From NCBI GenBank assembly GCA_964409875.1, contig CAYPEN010000001.1, forward strand, positions 70,362 through 134,361: a stretch of DNA of 64,000 nucleotides. The letters are read 5' to 3'. The translations under genes and the position numbers were made by a program. Source of the stretch: an uncultured Gammaproteobacteria bacterium. Its GTDB lineage: Bacteria > Patescibacteriota > Microgenomatia > Levybacterales > GWA1-39-11. Below the pieces are notes generated by a model, which had not been told where the DNA came from, made no database searches, and saw only the letters and a list, made by a program, of their open reading frames with translations. Shown here one piece after another: positions 6,675-56,615 of this stretch. Every line of letters begins with the position of its first letter. The stretch's first letter is position 1.

Positions 6675-6748
6675 TAATTGTCAAATGTATACCAGTTGAA
6701 ATTTGTTGTCAATATCGTGTGTTTTCGTTCAGTCGGGGTGGAGGGAAT

Positions 6749-6912
6749 AAGAACTCTGCTTCGTAAAGACCTTGATTACATTAAGAACTCTGCTTCGTAA
6801 AGACCTTGATTACATTAAGAACTCTGCTTCGTAAAGACCTTGATTGCATTAAGAACTCTGCTTCGCAAAGACCTTGATTACATTAAGAACTCTGCTTCGC
6901 AAAGACCTTGTT
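6749..6912. repeat. tandem direct repeat, 34-bp unit x ~4.8 (aagaactctgcttcg[t/c]aaagaccttgattacatt)
   Basis: Read directly. Contiguous copies with no spacers. Flanked by 22-nt direct repeats (6726-6748 and 6934-6957); the second is the 3' end of tRNA-Pro. Confidence 0.9.
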
Positions 6913-6941
6913 CCCTCCTACCGCTCCTTCACTTCGTTCAG

Positions 6942-7013
6942 TCGGGGTGGAGGGAATTGAACCCTCTGCCGCACGAACCCGAATCGTGCATGCAACCGAT
7001 ACACCTCACCCCG
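6942..7013 (-). tRNA. tRNA-Pro (anticodon CGG)
   Basis: Manual cloverleaf fold on the minus strand. Acceptor CGGGGTG/CACCCCG. Anticodon loop TTCGGGT. T-arm GAGGG-TTCAATT-CCCTC. 72 nt; CCA not encoded. Confidence 0.75.
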
Positions 7014-7091
7014 AAATGCGACCCCGAGAGGAGTCGTTCTGTTTTACAGTTGCCAAAGGCAACAATCCAATCTTTCGCCGAAGGCAATTTG

Positions 7092-7164
7092 CGACCCCGA
7101 GAGGAGTCGAACCTCCAATCTTTCCCTTAGGACGGGACTGCTCAATCCATTAAGCTACGGGGTC
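7092..7164 (-). tRNA. tRNA-Arg (anticodon CCU)
   Basis: Manual fold. Acceptor GACCCCG/CGGGGTC. D-arm GCTT/GAGC with GG in the loop. Anticodon loop GTCCTAA. T-loop TTCGACT. 73 nt. Confidence 0.8.
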
Positions 7165-7363
7165 ATTTACGTTTTCAATCTGCTCAATCCCTCAGCGCAA
7201 TGCTAACGCATTGAAAGCTACGGGGTCATACGCCGCAAGCTTTGCTTAAACGAAGTTCAAGCTCTGCTTACGGGGTCTAGTTCGTTCGTATTTTATCATC
7301 CATTGTACTCCTGAAGCAAAGGATATGGACATTTTAGACATCATGACTTATAACTAGTCCCAA

Positions 7364-44445: not shown

Positions 44446-45902
<1,457 letters not shown>

Positions 45903-46044: not shown

Positions 46045-47844
46045 CTACTTATATACAACTGTTGTAATTCCAGTTTTAAAGTCTCCGGTTATTTCTGTAG
46101 TTTTGCCTGTGTATTCCCGAAAGAGAGTTGTCCTTGGAGTTTTTAGACCAACTGTCCTAGGATATGAAAAAGTTATATAGTAAGCGCCTTGAGTTAATGG
46201 TTTCCAATCGATTCCCCATTGTGCTGTCATAACAATTTGGCTGGTATAGTAGTTTATTATCTTTATTGTTGCATTCGTAGGAGGGTTTGTAACTACTCTT
46301 AAAAGTCCCATATTTGAAGGAAGTTTTGTAGGAGTTGGGGAGAGCGTTGGTGCTATCGTAGGCGTATTTGTGGGAAGAGGGGTAGGAGTATTGGTTGGTG
46401 CATTGGTTGGAGTCAGTGTTGGGAGAGGGGCCATATCAGCCATGACAGAGGAAAAAGATGATTTTTGAGTCCCGTCCGTCTTAACTATTCCAAAAGTCCC
46501 TTCGCAAAGACCGCCTGACGTTGCCTCATCCATAATTTCATAAAGAATAATTATATTAGCACTTGAAAGCTTCAGACTATTTATCGACTTTGTTAAATAA
46601 TTTGCCTGGTCAGACTCAGAATATCCGGCAGTCATCGTACATACTCCTGTTTCTGCAACTGCTACGTCTTTAGAATAACGTGCTCTCACGTCATCTACAC
46701 GTGTGCCGAGTTTGGATATCTCTGTTAAATCTGGAGCCGGATACATATCAACGGACAGTATGTCCAAGTTGTCTTTTATAGCATCGAAAAATTGGTACCA
46801 TCGGGTAATTGTCGCGTCATTCATCGGATATCCGCTGACGTTTGTTGTGACATATGTTTTTGCGTCATTTGTTTTTATCGCATTTTTTGCAACAGCAATA
46901 ACCGAGTTTAAGTCTGATAAATAAGAAGAAGTGAGCGTTGTCATCAGGGAATAATCGCGGAAATTTTGCATATCCGATTCGTTAAAAACTTGCCAAACGG
47001 CAATTTTCCCTGCCCATCTTGATGACAAATACTGATAATACTGGTCGGTAACTGTCTTATAATCATCAAGCATGTAACCTTTTGCAAATGCAGGCGTGTT
47101 AGTTACAAGGAATATTCTTAATCCCTTTTGTACTGCATAATTTATGGCCGTATCATACACTGCAAGATTTGTTGAATTCCAGGTAATTGCGTTTGATGAT
47201 AGACCTTGAACGCTTTGGACAACGGAGGTGCCGGCAGTAAGATCTGCAACGACCGTGGTAGTTTTATTTGGGTAAATTGTGGCTTGAGAAGCTGCAGGTA
47301 TTTTGACAGGTGAACCGTTTATCGTTGTATACGGATATGTGTACGAAATAGAGTACTGACCGGTTGGTAAGCTTACCCAATCAATGCTCCATGTTTTTTG
47401 TGCAACAACTTGGCCACCCTGATCTTTTACGGTTATTGTAGTTTCCACTGCAGGGTTGGTATATACCCTCAAAAGGCCTGGTCCGGGAATAGGTGTTGGG
47501 CTTGGGGTTGCAGTAGGAAGAGTGTTGGGAGTCTCTGATGCTACTTCAAAATCAATGACATTGAACCGTATCCATTTTTGTCCATTAGAAACAAGCGTAT
47601 CAACATTCTGCTTAAATTTATTGATATCCAAATTGTTATTTGCAGCAGATACATGAGTGTTAAACCCAAATTCCGTACCATTCGTAAAAGATGCATGCTG
47701 ACGGATATCTATTTGTTTTGTCGTCATGTAGAATGTTGCGCCAATAAGAAGAGCAAATACTCCGAGAAATGCAAAGAGTCTGAAGTCAGAAATATTATCC
47801 TTCAGTCTTTGTCCAAGACTTTTACTTTTAATTTCTCTTACCAT
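46045..47844 (-). CDS. secreted clan GH-A-like glycoside hydrolase with Thr/Pro linkers and beta-sandwich domains
   Basis: 599 aa. TM then QIDIRQHA motif. Central TIM-barrel-like region with acid/base AVWQVFNESD (NE) and nucleophile-like VAVAETGVC. PTP linkers. C-terminal LLRVVTNP...YYITFSYP domain (PEGA-like). Confidence 0.5.
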   Translation of the reverse strand: MVREIKSKSLGQRLKDNISDFRLFAFLGVFALLIGATFYMTTKQIDIRQHASFTNGTEFGFNTHVSAANNNLDINKFKQNVDTLVSNGQKWIRFNVIDFEVASETPNTLPTATPSPTPIPGPGLLRVYTNPAVETTITVKDQGGQVVAQKTWSIDWVSLPTGQYSISYTYPYTTINGSPVKIPAASQATIYPNKTTTVVADLTAGTSVVQSVQGLSSNAITWNSTNLAVYDTAINYAVQKGLRIFLVTNTPAFAKGYMLDDYKTVTDQYYQYLSSRWAGKIAVWQVFNESDMQNFRDYSLMTTLTSSYLSDLNSVIAVAKNAIKTNDAKTYVTTNVSGYPMNDATITRWYQFFDAIKDNLDILSVDMYPAPDLTEISKLGTRVDDVRARYSKDVAVAETGVCTMTAGYSESDQANYLTKSINSLKLSSANIIILYEIMDEATSGGLCEGTFGIVKTDGTQKSSFSSVMADMAPLPTLTPTNAPTNTPTPLPTNTPTIAPTLSPTPTKLPSNMGLLRVVTNPPTNATIKIINYYTSQIVMTAQWGIDWKPLTQGAYYITFSYPRTVGLKTPRTTLFREYTGKTTEITGDFKTGITTVVYK

Positions 47845-47906: not shown

Positions 47907-49427
47907 TTATTGATATGTTACCGAGGTTTTTCCGGTGTTAAAGTCTCCTAAAATATTTGTCGTTTTTTGTTTTACGATTTTAAAAAGCACAGTTTTCGGA
48001 AGTCTTAACCCTCCTGTTTTGGGATAAGAAAAAGTCACGTAATAATATCCGGGATCAAGTGAAGCCGATTGTATTCCTCCTGTTGCTGTAAGCACTATCT
48101 TCCCTCCTTTTTCCGATAAAATACGAATTGTTGCATTGAGTGTTGGAATAACAACAACATTAAGAATGCCTTTGTTTGTTGGTGTTGGGGTAGGTGTTGG
48201 CATAGACGTAGGTGAAGGCGTTGCTGTGGGTATCGATGTAGGGGTGAGGGTCGGAGTTGGATTAAGCGCAGTTATAACTGCTGTATAGGATGATTTTTGG
48301 GTTCCGTCTGACTTCACTATGCCATAGGAAGTATCGCAGGTGCTGCTTGAGGAATTTTGATCTACAAGTTCGTATTGCAGAAGAAGTTTTGCACTTGAAA
48401 GCCTAATATTGTTGACTGTTTGTGGGACGTAGTTTTGTTGGTCTGTCTCCGAATAAATACCGTTTTGTGTGCAAATTCCTGTTCCGGCGACAACAACATC
48501 TTTTGCATATTTTGATTTCAAACTTTCAATAATTGTACTTAATTTGCTGATTTGCCCAGCATCCGTATTCGGATACATTTCTATCGAAACAACATCTACA
48601 TTTGAATTCACTGCATCATAGAATTGATTCCAATTGGCAACAAGGGTATCTGTGAGCGGATTGCCGCCTGTTGATGTTGAGACAATTGTTGCGGGGTCTG
48701 ATGACTTTATGGCACTGTTGGCTGTAGACAGTATGGAGTTGAATTCTGAGAGATACGTTGGGTCAAGAGAAGACATTGGAGCAGCATCCCGAAAGTTTTT
48801 TATATTCGAATCAGGAAATATGTTCCAAACTGATATTTTTCCCTTGTATCTATTTGATAAAAATTGGAAATATTCTGCTGTTGCAGACTGGTAATCTGAG
48901 ACTACGTAATTGCTCGCAAAACGTGGGGTGGCAGTTGACAAGAATATTTTCAACCCATTTTGATAAGCGTAGTCAATAGCCGCATCGTATACAGAGAGAT
49001 TTGTTGTGTTCCATTGGATAAAAGTAGTAGTGCCCAACACAGTATCGGGAGGGGTCGGTGTTGGACTGACAGAAGGACTAATTGTTGTTTGTGGAATGGG
49101 TGTTGGAGTAGGACCGGGAGGTGGGGAGGCTATATCGGAAGGATTGATTGCGAGTCTTACCCACTGCTGATTGTTGTTCTTAAGCCTGTCAACACTGGTT
49201 TTGAATGTATCTAATTGGAGTGTTCCATTGACCGATAGGTCAGCCGCAAAACCGAATTCCATGCCGGTTCCGAAAGCCCTCTGCCGTATTTCTTGAGGTT
49301 TTCGCGCCATATAGAAAGTTATGCCTATAAGAAGCGTAAAAAGGGCAAGAACTAAGAATAGCTTGAAGTCAGAGATATGCTCAAGAAAATTCTTAAGAAA
49401 ACCCTTTTTCTTTATTTCTTTCACCAT
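47907..49427 (-). CDS. paralog of 46045..47844 lacking both catalytic Glu (probable non-catalytic GH-like protein)
   Basis: 506 aa. Same architecture, with motif QEIRQRA. Equivalent positions read VWNIFPDSN and VVAGTGICT (E->D and E->G). Confidence 0.5.
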   Translation of the reverse strand: MVKEIKKKGFLKNFLEHISDFKLFLVLALFTLLIGITFYMARKPQEIRQRAFGTGMEFGFAADLSVNGTLQLDTFKTSVDRLKNNNQQWVRLAINPSDIASPPPGPTPTPIPQTTISPSVSPTPTPPDTVLGTTTFIQWNTTNLSVYDAAIDYAYQNGLKIFLSTATPRFASNYVVSDYQSATAEYFQFLSNRYKGKISVWNIFPDSNIKNFRDAAPMSSLDPTYLSEFNSILSTANSAIKSSDPATIVSTSTGGNPLTDTLVANWNQFYDAVNSNVDVVSIEMYPNTDAGQISKLSTIIESLKSKYAKDVVVAGTGICTQNGIYSETDQQNYVPQTVNNIRLSSAKLLLQYELVDQNSSSSTCDTSYGIVKSDGTQKSSYTAVITALNPTPTLTPTSIPTATPSPTSMPTPTPTPTNKGILNVVVIPTLNATIRILSEKGGKIVLTATGGIQSASLDPGYYYVTFSYPKTGGLRLPKTVLFKIVKQKTTNILGDFNTGKTSVTYQ

Positions 49428-49483: not shown

Positions 49484-49798
49484 TTATTTTTTGGGGGAAA
49501 CGACGAGGCAGCAAATGGCGAGCTTACCGAGTCTTTGAGTGCATTCTTTTTTCCCTGATTCTCTTTCAACCTCTCCAAGAGGGCAATTGGCTTCAGCCCG
49601 GCATACATTCACCCGGCCATCGGGGTTATTGGGTGGACAGCCTGGGGTTTCGATTGTAGGCGTAGGTTCAAGAAAATGGTTTGAAGCTTGTTGTCGGATA
49701 TCCTGTCTTTGATTGACAAGGAACATAGTTACACTGAGGACAAATCCGATACCGGCAACGCTAAGAATTGATAATATTGAAAATTTATTGCTAGGCAT
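49484..49798 (-). CDS. small secreted Cys-containing protein with post-TM QDIRQQA motif
   Basis: 104 aa. TM, motif, then 6 Cys. Confidence 0.4.
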   Translation of the reverse strand: MPSNKFSILSILSVAGIGFVLSVTMFLVNQRQDIRQQASNHFLEPTPTIETPGCPPNNPDGRVNVCRAEANCPLGEVERESGKKECTQRLGKLAICCLVVSPKK

Positions 49799-50700: not shown

Positions 50701-50844
50701 TCATTAAACGTAAAGGATTATTCAGCTCAAGTCAAATGAAATGAAGATGGTGTAGTGTGTGTAAATCCGTTTATCGAAGATTAATCCTTTTCACTAAATA
50801 CATTGTGGGTGATGAACATGTTCTCGCCCACCGCACTTCGTTTG

Positions 50845-50912
50845 TGGGTGATAAAGGAGTCGGACCTTTGACCTCGTTCTTACGCTCTGATGGAGTGAGT
50901 GATCAGGAACGC
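50845..50912 (-). pseudogene. partial tRNA-Ile copy (anticodon arm to 3' end) with a 20-nt insertion in the anticodon loop
   Basis: Identical to the tRNA-Ile 3' portion except CTGA[tcactcactccatcagagcg]TAAGAACG. No D-arm or 5' acceptor strand. Confidence 0.6.
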
Positions 50913-50953
50913 ATTGAAGATATTTTTGATACTCCTTTTCACCGAAGGTATTG

Positions 50954-51025
50954 TGGGTGATAAAGGAGTCGGACCTTTGACCTCGTTCTTATCAGGAACG
51001 CGCTCTACCGTTGAGCCAATCACCC
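50954..51025 (-). tRNA. tRNA-Ile (anticodon GAU)
   Basis: Manual fold. Acceptor GGGTGAT/ATCACCC. D-arm GCTC/GAGC. Anticodon stem CGTTC/GAACG with loop CTGATAA. T-arm AAAGG-TCCGACT-CCTTT. Confidence 0.8.
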
Positions 51026-51127
51026 TAATTTTGATTGGTAAAACGGCAAACTTGTTTACCGTTGAGCCAATCACCCTAATTTTGATTGGTAAAACGGCAA
51101 ACTTGTTTACCGTTGAGCCAATCACCC
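51007..51127. repeat. tandem repeat, 51-nt unit x ~2.4, each unit starting with the first 19 nt of tRNA-Ile
   Basis: accgttgagccaatcaccc + taattttgattggtaaaacggcaaacttgttt repeated. Units contain two inverted repeats (ccaatca/tgattgg; aacggtaaac/gtttgccgtt). Confidence 0.85.
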
Positions 51128-51277
51128 AATATTAAACTTCGGAAGATAATTATATCAAAATTGCCTCAAAAGAGCCATATTATTCTTCTTGCCATTTATC
51201 AATCCGTTTGCTAATCTTATGTATCTTTAGTTTGGTTCCTAACTACTTGCTACCAACTACAAACTACTAATTACATT

Positions 51278-51962: not shown

Positions 51963-53054
51963 CTACAGAACTAGCAAAAATATTCCTCCCAGGATTACTA
52001 TTATTGCCCCACCAATAATTCCAATTGTTTGAGCCATACCGCCCGGTTTTGCTATGGTCGGTGTAGCCGTCGGCGGAATTGGTGTTGCTGTTGCGGTCGG
52101 TACAACTGTAGCAGTTGCGGTGGGTTGCAAGGATGGGGTGGGGGTCTGAGTTGGTGAAATAGTAGCAGTGGGGGTGCTGGTGGGTGTCGGAGATGGAGTT
52201 AAGGTTGCTGTTGGCGTTGGTGTATAGGTAGCAGTAGGAGTGGGGGTGTTGGTGGGAGTTGCAGTGGGGGTATTAGTTGGGGTGGATGTCGTAGTATTTG
52301 TAGGGCTAACAGAAGTTGTTATTGTTGCTGATGGCGTTGCCGTTATTGTTACTGACGGTGTTGTTGTTGCGGTGGGGGTAGCAGTTGGTGTAATTTCCGC
52401 GTCAAGTACAGAACCAAAATCAGTCGTCCAGTACCAATTCTGGTCGTGCGTTGATTGGACGCGCGCAATGCCAATTGCAACAGCTTGCGCGTCTTTCATT
52501 TGCTCCCTGTGGGCATACGTACAGTTATTTCCATTCGCATCCCCGTCGCATCCGTTTTTCCACGCATCGAATGCACTTTGTCCGGTTGGCCCTACCCAAG
52601 CAATATTTTCTGCAATATGGGGAGCGCTATAGCCAAATGAGGGGATTCTTGTATTAATATTTCTGCCTTTCGAATCCACATGGTCTAAGTGTCCTGAAAC
52701 TGCCATGTCATTCGACATCCAGTCGGCCGATTCCGTAAGCTTTACGGAAATTTTCAAAGGGGATAGTCCAAATGTGGCACGGTAATCATTAATCAGTTTT
52801 AAAAAATTCCACTCTTCAGTGTCTATGTCTTTAGTTGAAGTTGTGGTAGTAGTTGAAGGAGTAGTGGTATCATTTCCGCTTGCACGTTGTCTGTTATCTT
52901 GCTGTTGTTTGATAAGAATTGTTGTGATAATAAGAGCTACCAAGACAAAAGTAATTGCACCGATGAGAACGAATTTTTTCTGCACAGTTAATATTACCTT
53001 TTGAACCTTTATAAACGCAATACTGATAGCATTCCGCTTCAAATTTTGATACAC
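51963..53054 (-). CDS. secreted CAP/SCP (PR-1-like) domain protein with Thr/Pro linker and C-terminal hydrophobic tail
   Basis: 363 aa. TM then QQQDNRQRA motif. CAP-like core ([10 protein letters not shown]...[11 protein letters not shown]...AWKNGCDGD). Long TPT repeat. Ends KPGG + 22 hydrophobic residues. Confidence 0.55.
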
Positions 53055-53065
53055 TTACCGCTAAT

Positions 53066-53137
53066 GGCGCGGTGGCGAAGTGGTAACGCGGGGGTCTGCA
53101 AAACCTCTATGCGAGGGTCCGATTCCCTTCCGCGCCT
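53066..53137 (+). tRNA. tRNA-Cys (anticodon GCA)
   Basis: Manual fold. Acceptor GGCGCGG/CCGCGCC. Anticodon loop CTGCAAA. T-arm GAGGG-TCCGATT-CCCTT (one G-U). Confidence 0.7.
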
Positions 53138-53162
53138 CAAATTTTAGTTTACGTTCTTCAGG

Positions 53163-53248
53163 TTGGCGAAGAGATCACTCACCGTTTCACGGTGTAATGC
53201 AGCGGTCTGCAAAACCGCGATGCAGGGGTTCGATTCCCCTCCGCGCCT
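53163..53248 (+). pseudogene. degenerate tRNA-Cys-like copy (intact anticodon arm/T-arm/3' acceptor strand; no matching 5' acceptor strand; ~22-nt insertion in D region)
   Basis: GCGGT-CTGCAAA-ACCGC, AGGGG-TTCGATT-CCCCT and CCGCGCC are present. The 5' side reads GGTTGGCGAAG[agatcactcaccgtttcacg]GTGTAATGCAG. Confidence 0.5.
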
Positions 53249-53415
53249 CACGAAACATCAATTTTTTTAATTCACGAGTTTTCTTTGTTGCCAATGGTGT
53301 TTGGTTTCGCCCCGATTCTCCCCTTCGGGGATCCGGCTTTCAGCATGACCCACGTGCCTCAAAATTCCCCAAACCCCTATAGTATTTTTCTTAATTTGTG
53401 CTATAATTCTTACTT

Positions 53416-53846: not shown

Positions 53847-54215
53847 CTAACGCCGTGTACGAATTCCCTTCACTTTTGTTAGAGGTTTTACCGGATTCTC
53901 GCTTATTGTTGGGGTTGGGGTTGGAGATGCAACAGTTGGCGTTGGTGTTGGAACAGTGGAGGTTGGCAAAACTATTGTCGGAGTAGGCTCGGAAGCTTTT
54001 TGACGTGTGTCTTGTTGCTGGCTTAACTGTTGAATAGTGATTGGGAGAATAAGAAGCGCAATTGCAAAAGCACCAACAGGGATAAGTCCTGTGTAATTTC
54101 TCCCTTTTTTTGGTATTTTTGCTCCACCGCCTGGGATCGGATTTTGAAATGTATCATTCAGTCCAATTTTTGGGGCAAGTGGTCCCTGGAACGAATTTTG
54201 TGGTATTTCTGCCAT
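53847..54215 (-). CDS. small secreted Thr/Pro-rich protein with post-TM QQQDTRQKA motif
   Basis: 122 aa. TM, motif, PTPT linker, basic C-terminus. Confidence 0.4.
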   Translation of the reverse strand: MAEIPQNSFQGPLAPKIGLNDTFQNPIPGGGAKIPKKGRNYTGLIPVGAFAIALLILPITIQQLSQQQDTRQKASEPTPTIVLPTSTVPTPTPTVASPTPTPTISENPVKPLTKVKGIRTRR

Positions 54216-54220
54216 GTTTT

Positions 54221-54829
54221 TTATCGACTCGGAATTACGCTCGTGGAAGAAAGCACGATTTGCATCGGAGTAGTAGTATCAAGAACTGAGAATTTGGTTT
54301 TTTGAGTAGTAACAGCTGATTTTGGCAAGAATGTAACTTTCGTTGAGGTAACCCCTGAGAATTTGTTAGCTGTGAATGATAGTTGTCCGATGCTTGCTTT
54401 GCCAACTTTCTCGGTATCACCAAGCGCAATAGAAAGAGCATAGGAAATTCTTCCTTGTGTCTTGTCAATAGTATTTATTAAGACAATCGGGTTTTGCCCG
54501 AAAAGCTGGCCTGGAACAAGTGGAGTCAGTGTCACATTGGTAAGCGCTGTGGGGTCATACGTAAGCTCAACTTGTGCGCCAGCCACGGATTGGCCGTTAG
54601 TATCAAGAATAATATCCACCTTTTGCGCAGGGGTGCTTTTGGATACGTCCAACAATGGCGTTGAGAAGGAAAGCGAAGCAAAAGGCCGGATGACTACTGG
54701 TGTTGCAGTTACCGTGTTGGAGACTGATTTGCCTAGATTCTGAGTCTGATCTGAGCGAATAGCAACAAAGATAAGAACTCCTGTAATTATTGCGAGAATG
54801 ATAATAAGAATTGTCGTCTTTTTGGGCAT
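54221..54829 (-). CDS. membrane-anchored cohesin-like domain protein
   Basis: 202 aa. N-terminal TM. ~150-aa domain with QKVDIILDTNGQSVAGAQVELTYDPTALTNV and IGQLSFTANK...TSTKVTF resembling type-I cohesin strands. Homologous to the N-terminal domain of 55047..56615. Confidence 0.45.
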   Translation of the reverse strand: MPKKTTILIIILAIITGVLIFVAIRSDQTQNLGKSVSNTVTATPVVIRPFASLSFSTPLLDVSKSTPAQKVDIILDTNGQSVAGAQVELTYDPTALTNVTLTPLVPGQLFGQNPIVLINTIDKTQGRISYALSIALGDTEKVGKASIGQLSFTANKFSGVTSTKVTFLPKSAVTTQKTKFSVLDTTTPMQIVLSSTSVIPSR

Positions 54830-54945
54830 AGATTTAAATGTTCAATTCTTTACGTTGTATAAGAATGGTTGTTTTTTTGGGCATAGATTTAAATGTTCAA
54901 TTCTTTACGTTGTATAAGAATGGTTGTTTTTTTGGCATAGTAGGT
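54819..54945. repeat. 55-bp tandem direct repeat (x ~2.3) duplicating the start codon and first ~9 codons of the cohesin-like gene
   Basis: tttttgggcatagatttaaatgttcaattctttacgttgtataagaatggttg repeated. Each extra copy gives ATG + ~12-15 codons then a stop (MPKKTTILIQRKELNI*). Confidence 0.85.
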
Positions 54946-55046: not shown

Positions 55047-56615
55047 CTAGTCTCCATTTCTATTTATCGTGTTATATTGCATGATATTAATGTCATCATT
55101 ATCTTCCGTAGTTACTCCGTCATCATCCAGGTCTCCAAGGATTGCAATATCCCCTGTACAAGCAGTTTGATGGTTAAAGCAGGCCATAACATTCGTAAAG
55201 TCTTGTATATCAAGGGCGTTATTTTGGTCAAGGTCTCCAGTTACAAGTTCTACGACCGGTGTTGCATTGTCCTGCTTTGTCTGGTCGATATGCACTATTC
55301 CGGGAAGTCTTTTCTTTAGAGTGTTGTCCATCCGTACTTTTACTACATAATTGCCGGTCGGTAACGTGGTTCCTATTCCGACACTCCCTTCGTATTGGGC
55401 GGTAGCTGGGTTGAAATCAACAGTGCCCGTCTTTTCTGAGATCTTTGCGGATTCAGAAGACGTACTATCATATACAGACACTTTTACCGTTCTTCTGGTT
55501 CTTACCGGATGGTCATTCTCGCCATTCTTCTTGCTGATACCCGGAAGCTTTAGTGAAAGCTTCAGGCCTGTTTCTCCAGCTGCAAGGGTTACTGTCGGGA
55601 TTTGGGTTGGAGTGACCGTTGAAGTGACGGTTGTTGTGACTGTCGTTGTAACAGTCGTAGTAGTAGTAACTGTAGGAGAATTTGAGTTGCCATTCATATT
55701 GTATGTGCTCTTGTAACATTTAGATGCAACACCATTGTATGTAGTGCAGTCTGCGTTGCCGGCTGCTATTTCTGACCATCCGGATGGTACTGTTTGGGTT
55801 GTAGGGAGACAGTAGTTAATTGAACCATCCGTTTGGACTGTCGGGCAGCCATTATTGGTTCCGCTTGTTCTCTGGTATCCATTAGCGGCCGTGCAAACTC
55901 TTGCCGAAGCTCCGAGATATGTGGAACAATCTGTCTGTGTTGCTGTTTCACCAAGAGCCGTCTCGCAGGCCTCGCCTGTCGGCCTACAGTGATTCTTACC
56001 GTTATTGTAGTCAAAAGATGTATTGTTATTATCGTTGCTTCCCTGACTGCCACCCAGTGTAAAGCTCGCCTTTATGTTGTCTTTGTTATCAACATTAACG
56101 TAGGTACTAATTAATTGTGAGGTTGCTTGAAGGGAGGCTGGGTCGATAGAAACAGTAGCTGTACCGTTTTTTAATGCCTTGAATTTAAATGTGAAAACCT
56201 TCAAGTTATTTCCCATGACGGGGGTAACATTAGGGTTTATCATGACGACTTCAAAAGTTCCATTTTCATTTGATTTTTGTATTGCTTGTAGATTTGTGGA
56301 TTGGGAAGCCTCACTTACTTCAAGTAATGTTCGGTCGTAGAGCAATTTAAAATGAAGGGCACCCACGTCATTTGTTGCTGCGTTCATTATAAGGTCGACA
56401 TTTTGTGCCTGACCTACGGCTATATTGCCTGTTGCAGGAGAAAAATTGAATGTTATTGAAGGAGCAGTATCTGCCCGTTGCCGTAGGTCTTGCTGTTTAA
56501 GCACTTGATTTATGACAAAAGGAAGCGAGAGTGCCGCGATAGCCACAATTCCGGCAATAAGTTTTGGGCGATGGTTTGTGGCAAGCAATTTTAGCTTTGA
56601 GATAAATGGTTTCAT
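55047..56615 (-). CDS. scaffoldin-like protein: cohesin-like N-domain, Cys-rich module, Thr-rich linker, C-terminal dockerin-like repeat pair
   Basis: 522 aa. TM then QQDLRQRA. GALHFKLLYDRTLLEV cohesin-like domain. TVTTT repeats. C-terminal GDLDQNNALDIQDF and GDLDDDGVTTEDNDDINIMQ (DxDxDG Ca-loop pairs). Confidence 0.45.
   Translation of the reverse strand: MKPFISKLKLLATNHRPKLIAGIVAIAALSLPFVINQVLKQQDLRQRADTAPSITFNFSPATGNIAVGQAQNVDLIMNAATNDVGALHFKLLYDRTLLEVSEASQSTNLQAIQKSNENGTFEVVMINPNVTPVMGNNLKVFTFKFKALKNGTATVSIDPASLQATSQLISTYVNVDNKDNIKASFTLGGSQGSNDNNNTSFDYNNGKNHCRPTGEACETALGETATQTDCSTYLGASARVCTAANGYQRTSGTNNGCPTVQTDGSINYCLPTTQTVPSGWSEIAAGNADCTTYNGVASKCYKSTYNMNGNSNSPTVTTTTTVTTTVTTTVTSTVTPTQIPTVTLAAGETGLKLSLKLPGISKKNGENDHPVRTRRTVKVSVYDSTSSESAKISEKTGTVDFNPATAQYEGSVGIGTTLPTGNYVVKVRMDNTLKKRLPGIVHIDQTKQDNATPVVELVTGDLDQNNALDIQDFTNVMACFNHQTACTGDIAILGDLDDDGVTTEDNDDINIMQYNTINRNGD

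What the first reader, a model, noticed from the sequence alone, without database searches (positions are those of the whole stretch)
50845..51127. tRNA-Ile(GAU) flanked by a 3'-half copy with a 20-nt anticodon-loop insertion and by tandem repeats built from its 5' end
- The complete tRNA-Ile (50954..51025, minus strand) is followed 40 bp downstream by a copy of its anticodon arm through 3' end. This copy carries a 20-nt insertion inside the anticodon loop (CTGA|tcactcactccatcagagcg|TAAG), so not at the canonical 37/38 intron site.
- Upstream, the first 19 nt of the tRNA are repeated 2.4x in a 51-nt unit whose spacer forms two hairpins.
- This is the same theme as at the Pro/Arg and Cys loci. 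All four tRNA genes in this window have partial duplicates, hinting at a genome-wide process: tRNA-targeting integrases, or a regulatory RNA derived from tRNA halves.
- The supplied ORFs 50880..51125 and 50899..51135 are artefacts.
Basis: seen in the sequence. Interest (0 to 1): 0.6.

Follow-up and report, generated by a model that had tools for sequence, protein, structure and literature searches.

The report
tRNA gene surrounded by its own fragments
One intact isoleucine tRNA gene of a Levybacteria (candidate phyla radiation) genome lies among partial copies of its own two ends, most likely inert scars of repeated break-and-repair, and in related genomes the same spots hold a tiny nuclease gene nested inside the tRNA unit.

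Summary
tRNA-Ile(GAU), minus strand 51025..50953, is preceded by two perfect copies of its first 20 nt in a 51-nt tandem unit. It is followed by a copy of its anticodon arm through 3' end, interrupted in the anticodon. A further 3'-end copy lies downstream.

All four tRNA genes in the window show the same theme. So do 25 of 65 tRNA genes in related Levybacteria loci, against 8% of control segments.

The fragments are strictly polar: 5' pieces lie upstream and 3' pieces downstream. Their break points fall in the D, anticodon and T loops. Inserts are small hairpins. Each spacer carries an inverted copy of the neighbouring tRNA end.

I found no integrase, no intron-type tRNA and no Rfam family other than tRNA.

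In relatives, and in 59 of 80 metagenome loci, an ~80-aa GIY-YIG (UPF0213) ORF sits between a 5' tRNA copy and the real tRNA, often with a 3' copy downstream. Some of these ORFs are decaying.

My best reading (0.5): the window holds ORF-less scars of this tRNA-nested cassette system, later amplified by slippage. The main rivals are template-switch errors alone and a functional leader/trailer RNA. The link to the cassette rests on architecture, taxon and locus, not on sequence homology.

The parts
51149..51157 (-). Promoter-like extended -10 (TGATATAAT), 21 nt upstream of the first 5' fragment
   Evidence: Read from the sequence. It lies in a block that is invariant in the window, L004, L011 and L012. 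In L012 the same block directly precedes the tRNA. Promoter function is inferred.
51108..51127 (-). Distal copy of tRNA-Ile positions 1-20
   Evidence: 100% identical to 51006-51025.
51077..51107 (-). Spacer X (distal), an imperfect inverted copy of the preceding 20-mer
   Evidence: (I1, I3).
51057..51076 (-). Proximal copy of tRNA-Ile positions 1-20
51026..51056 (-). Spacer X (proximal), identical to the distal one. Homologous spacers occur in L002, L003, L004 and L011.
50953..51025 (-). Intact tRNA-Ile(GAU), the only functional-looking gene of the cluster
   Evidence: ARAGORN; Rfam tRNA 65.9 bits.
50913..50952 (-). Trailer. Positions 50931-50943 (GGTGAAAAGGAGT) are an inverted copy of tRNA positions 57-70.
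   Evidence: Sequence. The predicted fold pairs it with the 3' end of the pseudo-copy.
50902..50912 (-). Pseudo-copy, first part: tRNA positions 25-35 (5' anticodon stem and half the loop)
   Evidence: D7.
50883..50901 (-). Insert of about 20 nt inside the anticodon. It forms a small hairpin (CTGAT/ATCAG) and starts with the motif (G)ATCACTCA.
   Evidence: The motif is shared with the insert in the tRNA-Cys pseudo-copy and with one in L013.
50842..50882 (-). Pseudo-copy, second part: tRNA positions 35-73 plus 3 trailer nt, 100% identical to the gene
   Evidence: D2.
50782..50816 (-). Third, older copy: tRNA 3' end (TCATCACCCAC) plus a trailer 80% like the trailer of the intact gene
   Evidence: D4, D5.
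7017..7286 (-). Same theme at tRNA-Arg(CCU), 7091-7164. The 5' pieces are at 7269-7286 and 7215-7229, followed by a hairpin insert and positions 17-27 at 7180-7190. The 3' pieces are at 7066-7076 and 7017-7036, separated by the hairpin GTTGCC-TTT-GGCAAC (7049-7063).
6724..6910 (-). Same theme at tRNA-Pro(CGG), 6941-7013. A 25-nt 3' copy lies at 6724-6748, behind a 34-nt x 4.8 tandem array (6748-6910).
53164..53250 (+). Pseudo-tRNA-Cys behind tRNA-Cys (53066-53138). It has an 18-21 nt hairpin insert in the D loop and a destroyed 5' acceptor strand. It is a relic of a different allele.
   Evidence: Its best match is the functional tRNA-Cys of L011 (48 nt, 94%), against 87% to the window's own gene.

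Best explanation
The cluster is one working tRNA-Ile gene embedded in non-coding scars of repeated break-and-repair or insertion events that hit tRNA genes in this Levybacteria lineage.

Each event leaves a copy of the part of the tRNA on the outer side of the break: a 5' piece upstream, a 3' piece downstream. It also leaves a short filler that contains an inverted copy of the neighbouring tRNA end, hence the hairpins. Only rearrangements that keep one intact gene survive, which gives the nested layout 5'-5'-[tRNA]-3'-3'. The two identical 51-nt units are a recent slippage amplification of one such scar.

In related genomes the same positions hold an intact cassette. An ~80-aa GIY-YIG nuclease gene of the UPF0213 type is nested between a 5' tRNA copy (placed right after the tRNA promoter) and the real tRNA, often with a 3' copy downstream. 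I therefore read the window's structure as the ORF-less remains, or by-products, of that tRNA-nested nuclease cassette system.

Shown:
- the anatomy and the polarity of the fragments;
- that the phenomenon is restricted to this lineage;
- presence/absence polymorphism among close relatives;
- allele replacement at the Cys locus;
- the association between the ORF and tRNA genes.

Inferred:
- that the nuclease makes the breaks;
- that the window's units descend from ORF-bearing cassettes;
- that the fragments have no function of their own.
For: Anatomy.

Enrichment and polarity: fragments at 25 of 65 tRNA genes against 7.9% of controls (p = 2e-11), and strict 5'-upstream / 3'-downstream polarity.

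Break points recur in the loops:
- after CCTG of the anticodon loop in the window, L009, L013, L044 and L048;
- in the D loop at position 17 (Cys) or 20 (Ile);
- in the T loop.

Gain and loss on a short time scale:
- L012 has the conserved promoter directly before the tRNA, whereas L011, L004 and the window have promoter, fragment, spacer, tRNA.
- L002, whose Dcd protein is identical to the window's, has a different array.

Allele replacement at tRNA-Cys:
- The window has functional allele 1 followed by a relic of an L011-like allele 2.
- L011 has functional allele 2 followed by a relic of allele 1.

Cassette in Levybacteria relatives:
- L016: [Cys 1-22], 20-nt palindrome, GIY-YIG ORF (Pfam E = 2.4e-14), [tRNA-Cys], then [33-44], the same palindrome, [45-73]. 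The same palindrome also lies behind the ORF-less tRNA-Ile fragment of that genome.
- L024, L027, L065, L073 and L101 show the same layout at tRNA-Ile or tRNA-Cys. The ORFs of L073 and L101 carry stop codons.

Generality in 80 metagenome loci found through the protein alone:
- In 59 loci a tRNA of one of ten isotypes starts -13 to +77 nt after the ORF on the same strand.
- 42 of those 59 have a 5' copy of that tRNA upstream of the ORF, and 20 of 59 have a 3' copy downstream.
- In L091 and L092 the outer 5' and outer 3' halves pair 7/7 with each other but not with the inner tRNA. That fits a resident gene split by an ORF plus a new allele.

Hints linking the window directly to the cassette:
- The junction GGTA|AACA after position 20 is shared by the window unit and the ORF-bearing L101 cassette.
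- The only relaxed match to the cassette's hairpin pattern (GTTGCC-TTT-GGCAAC) in the 64-kb window lies inside the tRNA-Arg pseudo-copy.
Against: - The window has no GIY-YIG ORF (tblastn, E up to 1), no strict match to the GC-rich hairpin ('H') that the cassettes carry (GTCGCC-NNN-GGCGAC or related), and no detectable ORF remnant.
- The spacers and trailers share no significant sequence with the cassettes. The link rests on architecture, taxon and locus only.
- The 4-nt junction match and the single relaxed hairpin hit are individually weak.
- An 80-aa GIY-YIG domain has no DNA-binding module, so site-specific cutting of tRNA genes is unproven.
- The 5' fragments always match their own genome's tRNA (94-96% identity between genomes, every difference mirroring the tRNA), whereas the spacers are only 54-61% alike. 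The inverted copies partly covary with them. Plain scars should decay. This needs frequent re-creation, gene conversion or selection, none of which is shown.
Confidence: 0.5

Rival explanations
1. Replication errors alone. tRNA genes are short quasi-palindromes and heavily transcribed. Stalled nascent strands snap back and switch template twice, giving copy / inverted copy / copy structures (tandem inversion duplications) with junctions at the stem-loops. Slippage then amplifies them. No mobile element or nuclease is involved, and the GIY-YIG ORFs merely settle in the same permissive spots.
For: - The layout copy / inverted copy / copy occurs at both ends of the tRNA: fragment, inverted spacer, tRNA 5' end; and tRNA 3' end, GGTGAAAAGGAGT, pseudo-copy.
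- The tRNA-Cys units have the same form, GCGAAGTG-loop-CACTTCGC, with the matching change in L013.
- Break points lie in hairpin loops.
- The 51-nt unit is a perfect tandem.
- Selection for one intact gene explains the polarity by itself.
- The window has no ORF.
- The mechanism is known from Salmonella tandem inversion duplications (my own knowledge: Kugelberg 2010; Reams and Roth 2015).
Against: - The loops and fillers are not templated by the adjacent tRNA sequence. For example, AATTCGA follows Cys position 17, where the tRNA has GTAACGC.
- The inverted segments are short and imperfect, while the direct copies are perfect.
- It does not explain relics of foreign alleles.
- It does not explain why the phenomenon is limited to lineages that also carry the cassettes, nor why more than 70% of the ORFs of this family abut a tRNA.
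Confidence: 0.25
2. Functional cis-acting RNA. The leader (decoy 5' end plus antisense) and the trailer (antisense plus decoy 3' end) are modules that guide folding, processing or the level of the pre-tRNA, or they give rise to small RNAs.
For: - The fragments stay identical to the resident tRNA while the spacers diverge.
- The hairpins keep their pairing through a few compensatory changes (3 of 17 pairs; L013 tRNA-Cys).
- Leader and trailer helices flank tRNA-Ile with different sequences in L044, L048, L061 and L069.
- The leader fold is very stable (z = -7.3).
- The units lie inside the transcribed region, downstream of a conserved promoter block.
Against: - The units are present or absent among close relatives: L012 against L011; the Cys unit is missing in the window, L006, L007, L010, L012 and L014.
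- Copy number varies within one species.
- The pseudo-copies carry different inserts and truncations in each genome.
- No Rfam family matches.
- There are few independent sequences, so the covariation is weak.
Confidence: 0.12
3. Relics of tyrosine-integrase elements (prophages or islands) that integrated into the tRNA gene and were later lost, leaving attL/attR-type partial copies.
For: - The 3' fragments start in the anticodon loop, in the T loop or at the 3' end. These are the three sublocations that integrases use (my own knowledge: Williams 2002).
- Partial tRNA genes from integration are common in prokaryotes (PMC9897764).
Against: - No integrase lies near any of the four loci in the window, and I noticed none while reading the sequence around the tRNA genes of the related loci, which were not scanned for integrases.
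- The fragments are 30-110 nt from the gene.
- Abundant 5' fragments lie upstream.
- Whole-tRNA allele replacement has occurred, including the 5' acceptor strand.
- No viral contig carries the 3' half.
Confidence: 0.05
4. An intron-containing, split or permuted tRNA, or an assembly artefact.
For: - The short (18-24 nt) inserts sit in tRNA loops, as the small archaeal introns do.
- Repeats of this kind can be created by assemblers.
Against: - The interrupted copies lack a 5' half. ARAGORN with intron search and lowered thresholds finds nothing, and Rfam finds only the intact tRNA.
- An uninterrupted gene is present.
- Independent samples and many genomes show the same structures.
Confidence: 0.03

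Closest known systems
Partial tRNA genes left by integrating elements (attL/attR fragments; van der Gulik et al. 2023, PMC9897764; Williams 2002, from my own knowledge)
   Same: Non-functional tRNA fragments lie next to an intact tRNA gene, with break points in the anticodon loop, the T loop or at the 3' end.
   Different: - There is no integrase and no element between the copies.
- 5' fragments lie upstream.
- Hairpin inserts and inverted copies are present.
- The spacing is tens of nt.
Phage T4 SegB, a free-standing GIY-YIG homing endonuclease inside the T4 tRNA gene cluster (PMC2330249)
   Same: - A GIY-YIG nuclease gene lies among tRNA genes.
- Inheritance works by break and repair, with co-conversion of flanking tRNA sequence.
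- That mechanism would produce allele replacement like that seen at the Cys locus.
   Different: - The ORFs here are about 80 aa, the catalytic domain only (UPF0213 type: PDB 1zg2 and 1ywl; below the cut-off of the group I intron endonuclease model).
- They are nested inside one tRNA transcription unit, between partial copies of that tRNA.
- The host is a cellular genome.
- The window itself has no ORF.
tRNA-Thr locus of Caldiarchaeum subterraneum (Sugahara et al. 2012, PMC3293823)
   Same: A 5' fragment of a tRNA lies upstream of a replacing tRNA gene, with a mobile element in between. The locus is heterogeneous within a population.
   Different: - The host is an archaeon.
- The element is 1.8 kb and encodes a recombinase.
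- The outcome there is intron-containing tRNAs.
Tandem inversion duplications formed by snap-back and template switching at short quasi-palindromes (Salmonella; my own knowledge)
   Same: The order is copy / inverted copy / copy, with junctions at hairpins.
   Different: - The scale here is tens of nt instead of kilobases.
- The inverted segment is short and imperfect.
- The fillers are untemplated.
Archaeal multi-intron and split tRNA genes (Randau and Soll 2008; Fujishima et al.; my own knowledge)
   Same: Short inserts of about 20 nt sit in the D, anticodon and T loops of tRNA-like sequences.
   Different: - The host is bacterial.
- The interrupted copies are incomplete and lie beside an uninterrupted gene.
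- No bulge-helix-bulge arrangement was evident by eye at the window's insert.

Membership tests
Integrase att-site relics at a tRNA gene | A tyrosine or serine integrase gene, or a recognisable element, lies between or beside the direct repeats | tested here: not met
   The neighbours are dcd, DUF5667, CAP, acyltransferase, DsbA and formyltransferase genes. The copies are 30-110 nt from the gene.
Integrase att-site relics at a tRNA gene | Only the 3' part of the tRNA is duplicated, downstream of the gene | tested here: not met
   21 upstream fragments, 15 of them starting at position 1. The window has two upstream copies at Ile and two at Arg.
Free-standing GIY-YIG homing endonuclease locus (Seg-like) | An ORF with a GIY-YIG catalytic domain lies at the locus | tested here: not met
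   There is none in the window (tblastn). It is met in relatives: L016 (Pfam E = 2.4e-14), L024, L027 and L065, and 80 metagenome loci.
Free-standing GIY-YIG homing endonuclease locus (Seg-like) | A DNA-binding domain gives site specificity (proteins of about 200 aa or more) | tested here: not met
   The ORFs are 78-87 aa. The closest solved relatives are the UPF0213 proteins 1zg2 and 1ywl. The match to TIGR01453 scores 23.5 bits against a cut-off of 56.
Free-standing GIY-YIG homing endonuclease locus (Seg-like) | Presence/absence polymorphism at one locus among close relatives, with co-conversion of flanks | tested here: met
   - ORF present at tRNA-Ile or tRNA-Cys in L016, L024, L027 and L065 and absent in other Levybacteria.
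- Filled and empty leader in L011 against L012.
- Reciprocal allele relics at the Cys locus.
Free-standing GIY-YIG homing endonuclease locus (Seg-like) | The nuclease cuts the ORF-less allele | not testable with these tools
   This needs biochemistry.
Intron-containing or split tRNA | Complete exons that fold into a cloverleaf once the insert is removed | tested here: not met
   The pseudo-copy lacks positions 1-24. ARAGORN in intron mode and at lowered thresholds finds only the four intact genes, and Rfam finds only the intact tRNA.
CRISPR-like repeat-spacer array | Identical repeats separated by unrelated spacers of foreign origin, with cas genes nearby | tested here: not met
   The spacers of L002, L003, L004 and the window are homologous to each other and are inverted copies of the repeat. 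The repeat is the tRNA 5' end. The ORFs within about 10 kb on the Ile/Cys side are listed and the immediate neighbours were typed; none is a cas gene.
Simple tandem repeat made by slippage | Head-to-tail identical units | tested here: met
   51 nt x 2.4 at 100% identity. This explains the amplification only. It does not explain the origin of the first unit or the 3' copies.

The most novel reading that the evidence does not exclude
The fragments are footprints of a so far undescribed kind of selfish cassette in candidate-phyla-radiation bacteria.
- A minimal UPF0213-type GIY-YIG nuclease gene lives inside tRNA transcription units.
- It is flanked by partial copies of the host tRNA. The anticodon stem of the outer copy is swapped for an invariant GC hairpin.
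- It carries or regenerates a complete tRNA, so it can overwrite essential single-copy tRNA genes without killing the cell.
- This would drive rapid turnover of tRNA alleles and leave nested debris when the ORF is lost.
Probability: 0.35. Interest if true: 0.8.

Novelty: new variant of a known kind. Interest (0 to 1): 0.6.

Why it matters
tRNA genes are usually among the most stable parts of a bacterial genome. In this lineage they are hot spots of rearrangement.
- Alleles are replaced: closely related genomes carry tRNA-Ile genes with quite different acceptor stems.
- Assemblies break at these loci.
- Gene callers produce false ORFs over the repeats.

If the link to the nested GIY-YIG genes holds, two things follow.
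- It gives a first genomic context for the widespread UPF0213 proteins, whose function in bacteria is unknown.
- It describes a way for a nuclease gene to colonise essential RNA genes without an intron.

For annotation, it explains why these loci carry tRNA fragments and spurious ORFs.

Tried and rejected
- Viral contigs: a scan for the tRNA-Ile 3' half gave 0 hits.
- Metagenome DNA pattern: a scan for the fragment/spacer junction gave 0 hits.
- Rfam: permissive thresholds on the locus, and gathering thresholds on 20 cassette loci, returned only tRNA and rRNA, spurious miRNA-like hits caused by the palindromes, and one group II intron fragment in L027.
- ARAGORN: intron and low-threshold modes found no extra tRNA.
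- CRISPR-like reading of the L002 array: rejected, because the spacers are homologous inverted copies of the repeat.
- Terminator reading of the hairpins: rejected. There is no T run, and the scan found none.
- 16S origin of the inserts: I considered that they derive from the 16S 3' end (GGATCACCTCC). The Levybacteria 16S end differs and the match is poor, so I rejected this.
- Uninterrupted copy of the hairpin-bearing outer tRNA: none in 1.4 Mb of loci.
- Similarity between the window's spacers or trailers and the cassettes: none beyond the tRNA itself.
- Strain variants through exact-protein look-ups: only contigs that end in the repeats.
- Automatic parsing of outer acceptor stems was noisy. 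Only L091 and L092 (and L027/L084 by eye) are reliable.
Full report
**Observation**

The window carries four tRNA genes. tRNA-Ile(GAU) lies on the minus strand at 51025..50953 (Rfam tRNA 65.9 bits). Read in the direction of the tRNA, the locus has this order:
- A conserved promoter-like block with TGATATAAT (51157-51149).
- 21 nt of leader.
- Two identical 51-nt units. Each is tRNA positions 1-20 plus a 31-nt spacer (51127-51026; Tandem Repeats Finder: 2.4 copies, 100% matches).
- The intact gene.
- A 40-nt trailer.
- A copy of positions 25-35, about 20 extra nt, then positions 35-73 plus 3 trailer nt at 100% identity (50912-50842).
- 29 nt.
- A third copy of the 3' end with a trailer 80% like the trailer of the intact gene (50816-50782).

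- The repeated 5' piece is 20 nt, not 19.
- The spacer is not two hairpins. It is an imperfect inverted copy of the preceding 20-mer, so each unit is one long interrupted hairpin.
- The third 3' copy was missed.

The trailer also holds an inverted copy (GGTGAAAAGGAGT) of tRNA positions 57-70. Both ends of the gene thus show the order: copy, inverted copy, copy.

**The other loci in the window**

- tRNA-Arg has two upstream 5' pieces. One continues, after a hairpin insert in the D loop, with positions 17-27. It also has a downstream copy of positions 41-51 and 56-74, split by a hairpin insert.
- tRNA-Pro has a 25-nt 3' copy behind a 34-nt tandem array.
- tRNA-Cys is followed by a nearly full pseudo-copy with a hairpin insert in the D loop.
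- The inserts in the Ile and Cys pseudo-copies share GATCACTCAC, which occurs nowhere else in the window. A D-loop insert in L013 starts with the same GATCACTCA. Three of its five occurrences in 1.2 Mb lie at the left edge of such inserts. I cannot explain this motif.

**Organism and relatives**

Proteins in the window have Pro/Thr-rich linkers, and the 16S gene is unlinked. Loci found through the neighbouring dCTP deaminase (Dcd) come from Candidatus Levybacteria / Levyibacteriota.

Those loci hold 32 further tRNA-Ile and 29 further tRNA-Cys genes.
- Excluding contigs that duplicate the window's strain, 25 of 65 tRNA genes have at least one same-strand exact fragment of 11 nt or more within 700 nt. 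Only 7.9% of 2619 control segments do (p = 2e-11).
- The fragments occur in the closer relatives and are absent from most distant ones.
- Polarity is strict. 15 of 21 upstream fragments start at position 1 and none reaches the 3' end. 14 of 29 downstream fragments end at the 3' end and none starts at position 1.
- Break points recur in loops: after CCTG of the anticodon loop (window, L009, L013, L044, L048), at position 17 (Cys) or 20 (Ile) of the D loop, and in the T loop.
- L044 is the cleanest case: [1-33], 60 nt, [tRNA], 28 nt, [36-73].

**Dynamics**

- L002, from another sample and encoding an identical Dcd protein, has four 20-mers separated by diverged spacers.
- L012 has the promoter block directly before the tRNA. 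L011, L004 and the window have the fragment and spacer in between.
- At tRNA-Cys the window has its functional allele followed by a relic that matches the functional allele of L011 better (94%) than its own gene (87%). L011 in turn has a relic of the window-type allele behind its own gene. This is allele replacement with the displaced copy left downstream. It is not differential decay of an old tandem pair.

**What it is not**

- No integrase or other mobile-element gene lies beside any of the four loci.
- No viral contig carries the 3' half.
- ARAGORN in intron mode and Rfam find nothing but the intact genes.
- The two ORFs across the repeats have no significant family match and overlap the tRNA on both strands.
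- The hairpins are not terminator-like.

**The lead from relatives**

In L016 the tRNA-Cys promoter is followed, in order, by:
- tRNA-Cys positions 1-22;
- a perfect 20-nt palindrome;
- an 80-aa ORF with a GIY-YIG domain (Pfam E = 2.4e-14);
- the intact tRNA-Cys;
- positions 33-44, the same palindrome, and positions 45-73.

The same palindrome also lies behind the ORF-less 3' fragment of tRNA-Ile in that genome.

Further cases:
- L024, L027 and L065 have the same ORF directly before tRNA-Ile, with the stop codon inside the tRNA 5' end. A tRNA-like 5' portion lies before the ORF, and in L027 and L065 a 3' portion lies behind the tRNA.
- L073 and L101 carry decaying ORFs. L101 also has ORF-less fragments at its tRNA-Cys.
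- The proteins resemble the UPF0213 proteins 1zg2 and 1ywl.

**Generality of the cassette**

A metagenome scan with the protein alone returned 80 loci.
- In 59 of them a tRNA starts -13 to +77 nt after the ORF on the same strand. The isotypes are Ile, Gly, Val, Ala, Asp, Asn, Lys, Pro, Glu and Leu. In 13 more loci a tRNA on the same strand ends just upstream of the ORF, mostly within about 70 nt of its start.
- 42 of the 59 have a 5' copy of that same tRNA in the 260 nt before the ORF, mostly positions 1-25/28 at 100% identity. 20 of the 59 have a 3' copy downstream.
- In the outer copies the anticodon stem is replaced by an invariant GC hairpin: GTCGCC-NNN-GGCGAC, CCCCG...CGGGG or TCCGCC...GGCGGA. 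Such a hairpin is present next to 63 of the 80 ORFs and is rare elsewhere.
- No uninterrupted copy of such a tRNA exists in the loci.
- In L091 and L092 the outer halves pair with each other 7/7 but not with the inner tRNA. That fits a resident gene split by an ORF plus a new allele.
- I found no paper describing this arrangement. The nearest are T4 SegB (PMC2330249) and the Caldiarchaeum tRNA-Thr locus (PMC3293823).

**Interpretation**

The window shows the same architecture without the ORF:
- a 5' copy placed exactly where the tRNA would start after the promoter;
- a short hairpin-forming filler;
- the real tRNA;
- 3' copies with hairpin inserts in loops.

Two small links exist. The junction GGTA|AACA after position 20 is shared with the ORF-bearing L101 cassette. 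The only GTTGCC-TTT-GGCAAC hairpin of the window lies in the tRNA-Arg pseudo-copy.

I therefore take the cluster to be ORF-less scars of this system, with a recent slippage duplication of one unit. The steps I infer but have not shown are:
- that the nuclease makes the breaks;
- that repair from a diverged donor, or template switching, generates the copies and the inverted fillers;
- that selection for one intact gene gives the nesting.

**What does not fit**

- There is no sequence homology between the window's fillers and the cassettes.
- The 5' fragments track the resident tRNA exactly: 94-96% identity between genomes, with every change mirrored in the tRNA. The spacers are only 54-61% alike, and the inverted copies partly covary.

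This calls for frequent re-creation, gene conversion or selection. It keeps two rivals alive: pure template-switch errors at tRNA hairpins, and a functional leader/trailer RNA.

**Limits**

- Only 64 kb of this genome was available.
- The related loci are contigs of metagenome-assembled genomes, which tend to break at these repeats.
- There are no expression data.

Noticed in passing
window 46045-47844, 47907-49427, 49484-49798, 51963-53054, 53847-54215, 55047-56615 (all minus strand): Six neighbouring proteins start with a transmembrane helix followed by a shared motif, (K/N)QQ(D/E)xRQ(R/Q/K)A, and have Pro/Thr-rich linkers. This may be a lineage-specific sorting or processing signal.
   Followed up: no
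window 44446-45901 (+) and 50953-51025 (-); L006 7250-7560: The 16S rRNA gene has no 23S or 5S beside it, and tRNA-Ile lies 5 kb away on the other strand. In L006, tRNA-Ile follows the 16S 3' end by about 230 nt. The locus has therefore been rearranged.
   Followed up: partly
L057 about 230-640: A GIY-YIG ORF of the same family sits inside an insertion in the 16S rRNA gene. The insertion is bounded by the inverted repeat CCCCCTCTTTTT / AAAAAGAGGGGGG.
   Followed up: partly
window 50895-50904 (-), 53173-53182 (+); L013 3775-3783: The motif GATCACTCA(C) marks the left edge of three hairpin inserts in pseudo-tRNA copies in two genomes. Its origin is unknown.
   Followed up: partly
L084-L163 (for example L143, L145, L152): In the GIY-YIG cassettes the outer tRNA copy has its anticodon stem replaced by an invariant GC stem. 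In the CCCCG/CGGGG type the 7-nt loop stays close to the inner anticodon loop (ATGGAAT against ATGGCAT in L143). Breaking the homology between the direct repeats could protect the ORF from deletion; this is speculation.
   Followed up: partly
window 6748-6910 and 54804-54940: The 34-nt x 4.8 tandem array behind tRNA-Pro has units that each contain a degenerate copy of tRNA-Pro positions 43-58. A 55-nt x 2.5 tandem repeat in another intergenic region was not examined.
   Followed up: partly
L027 574-652: Rfam reports a group II intron domain fragment (38.2 bits, just above the gathering score) shortly after the 16S 3' end of a Levybacteria contig.
   Followed up: no
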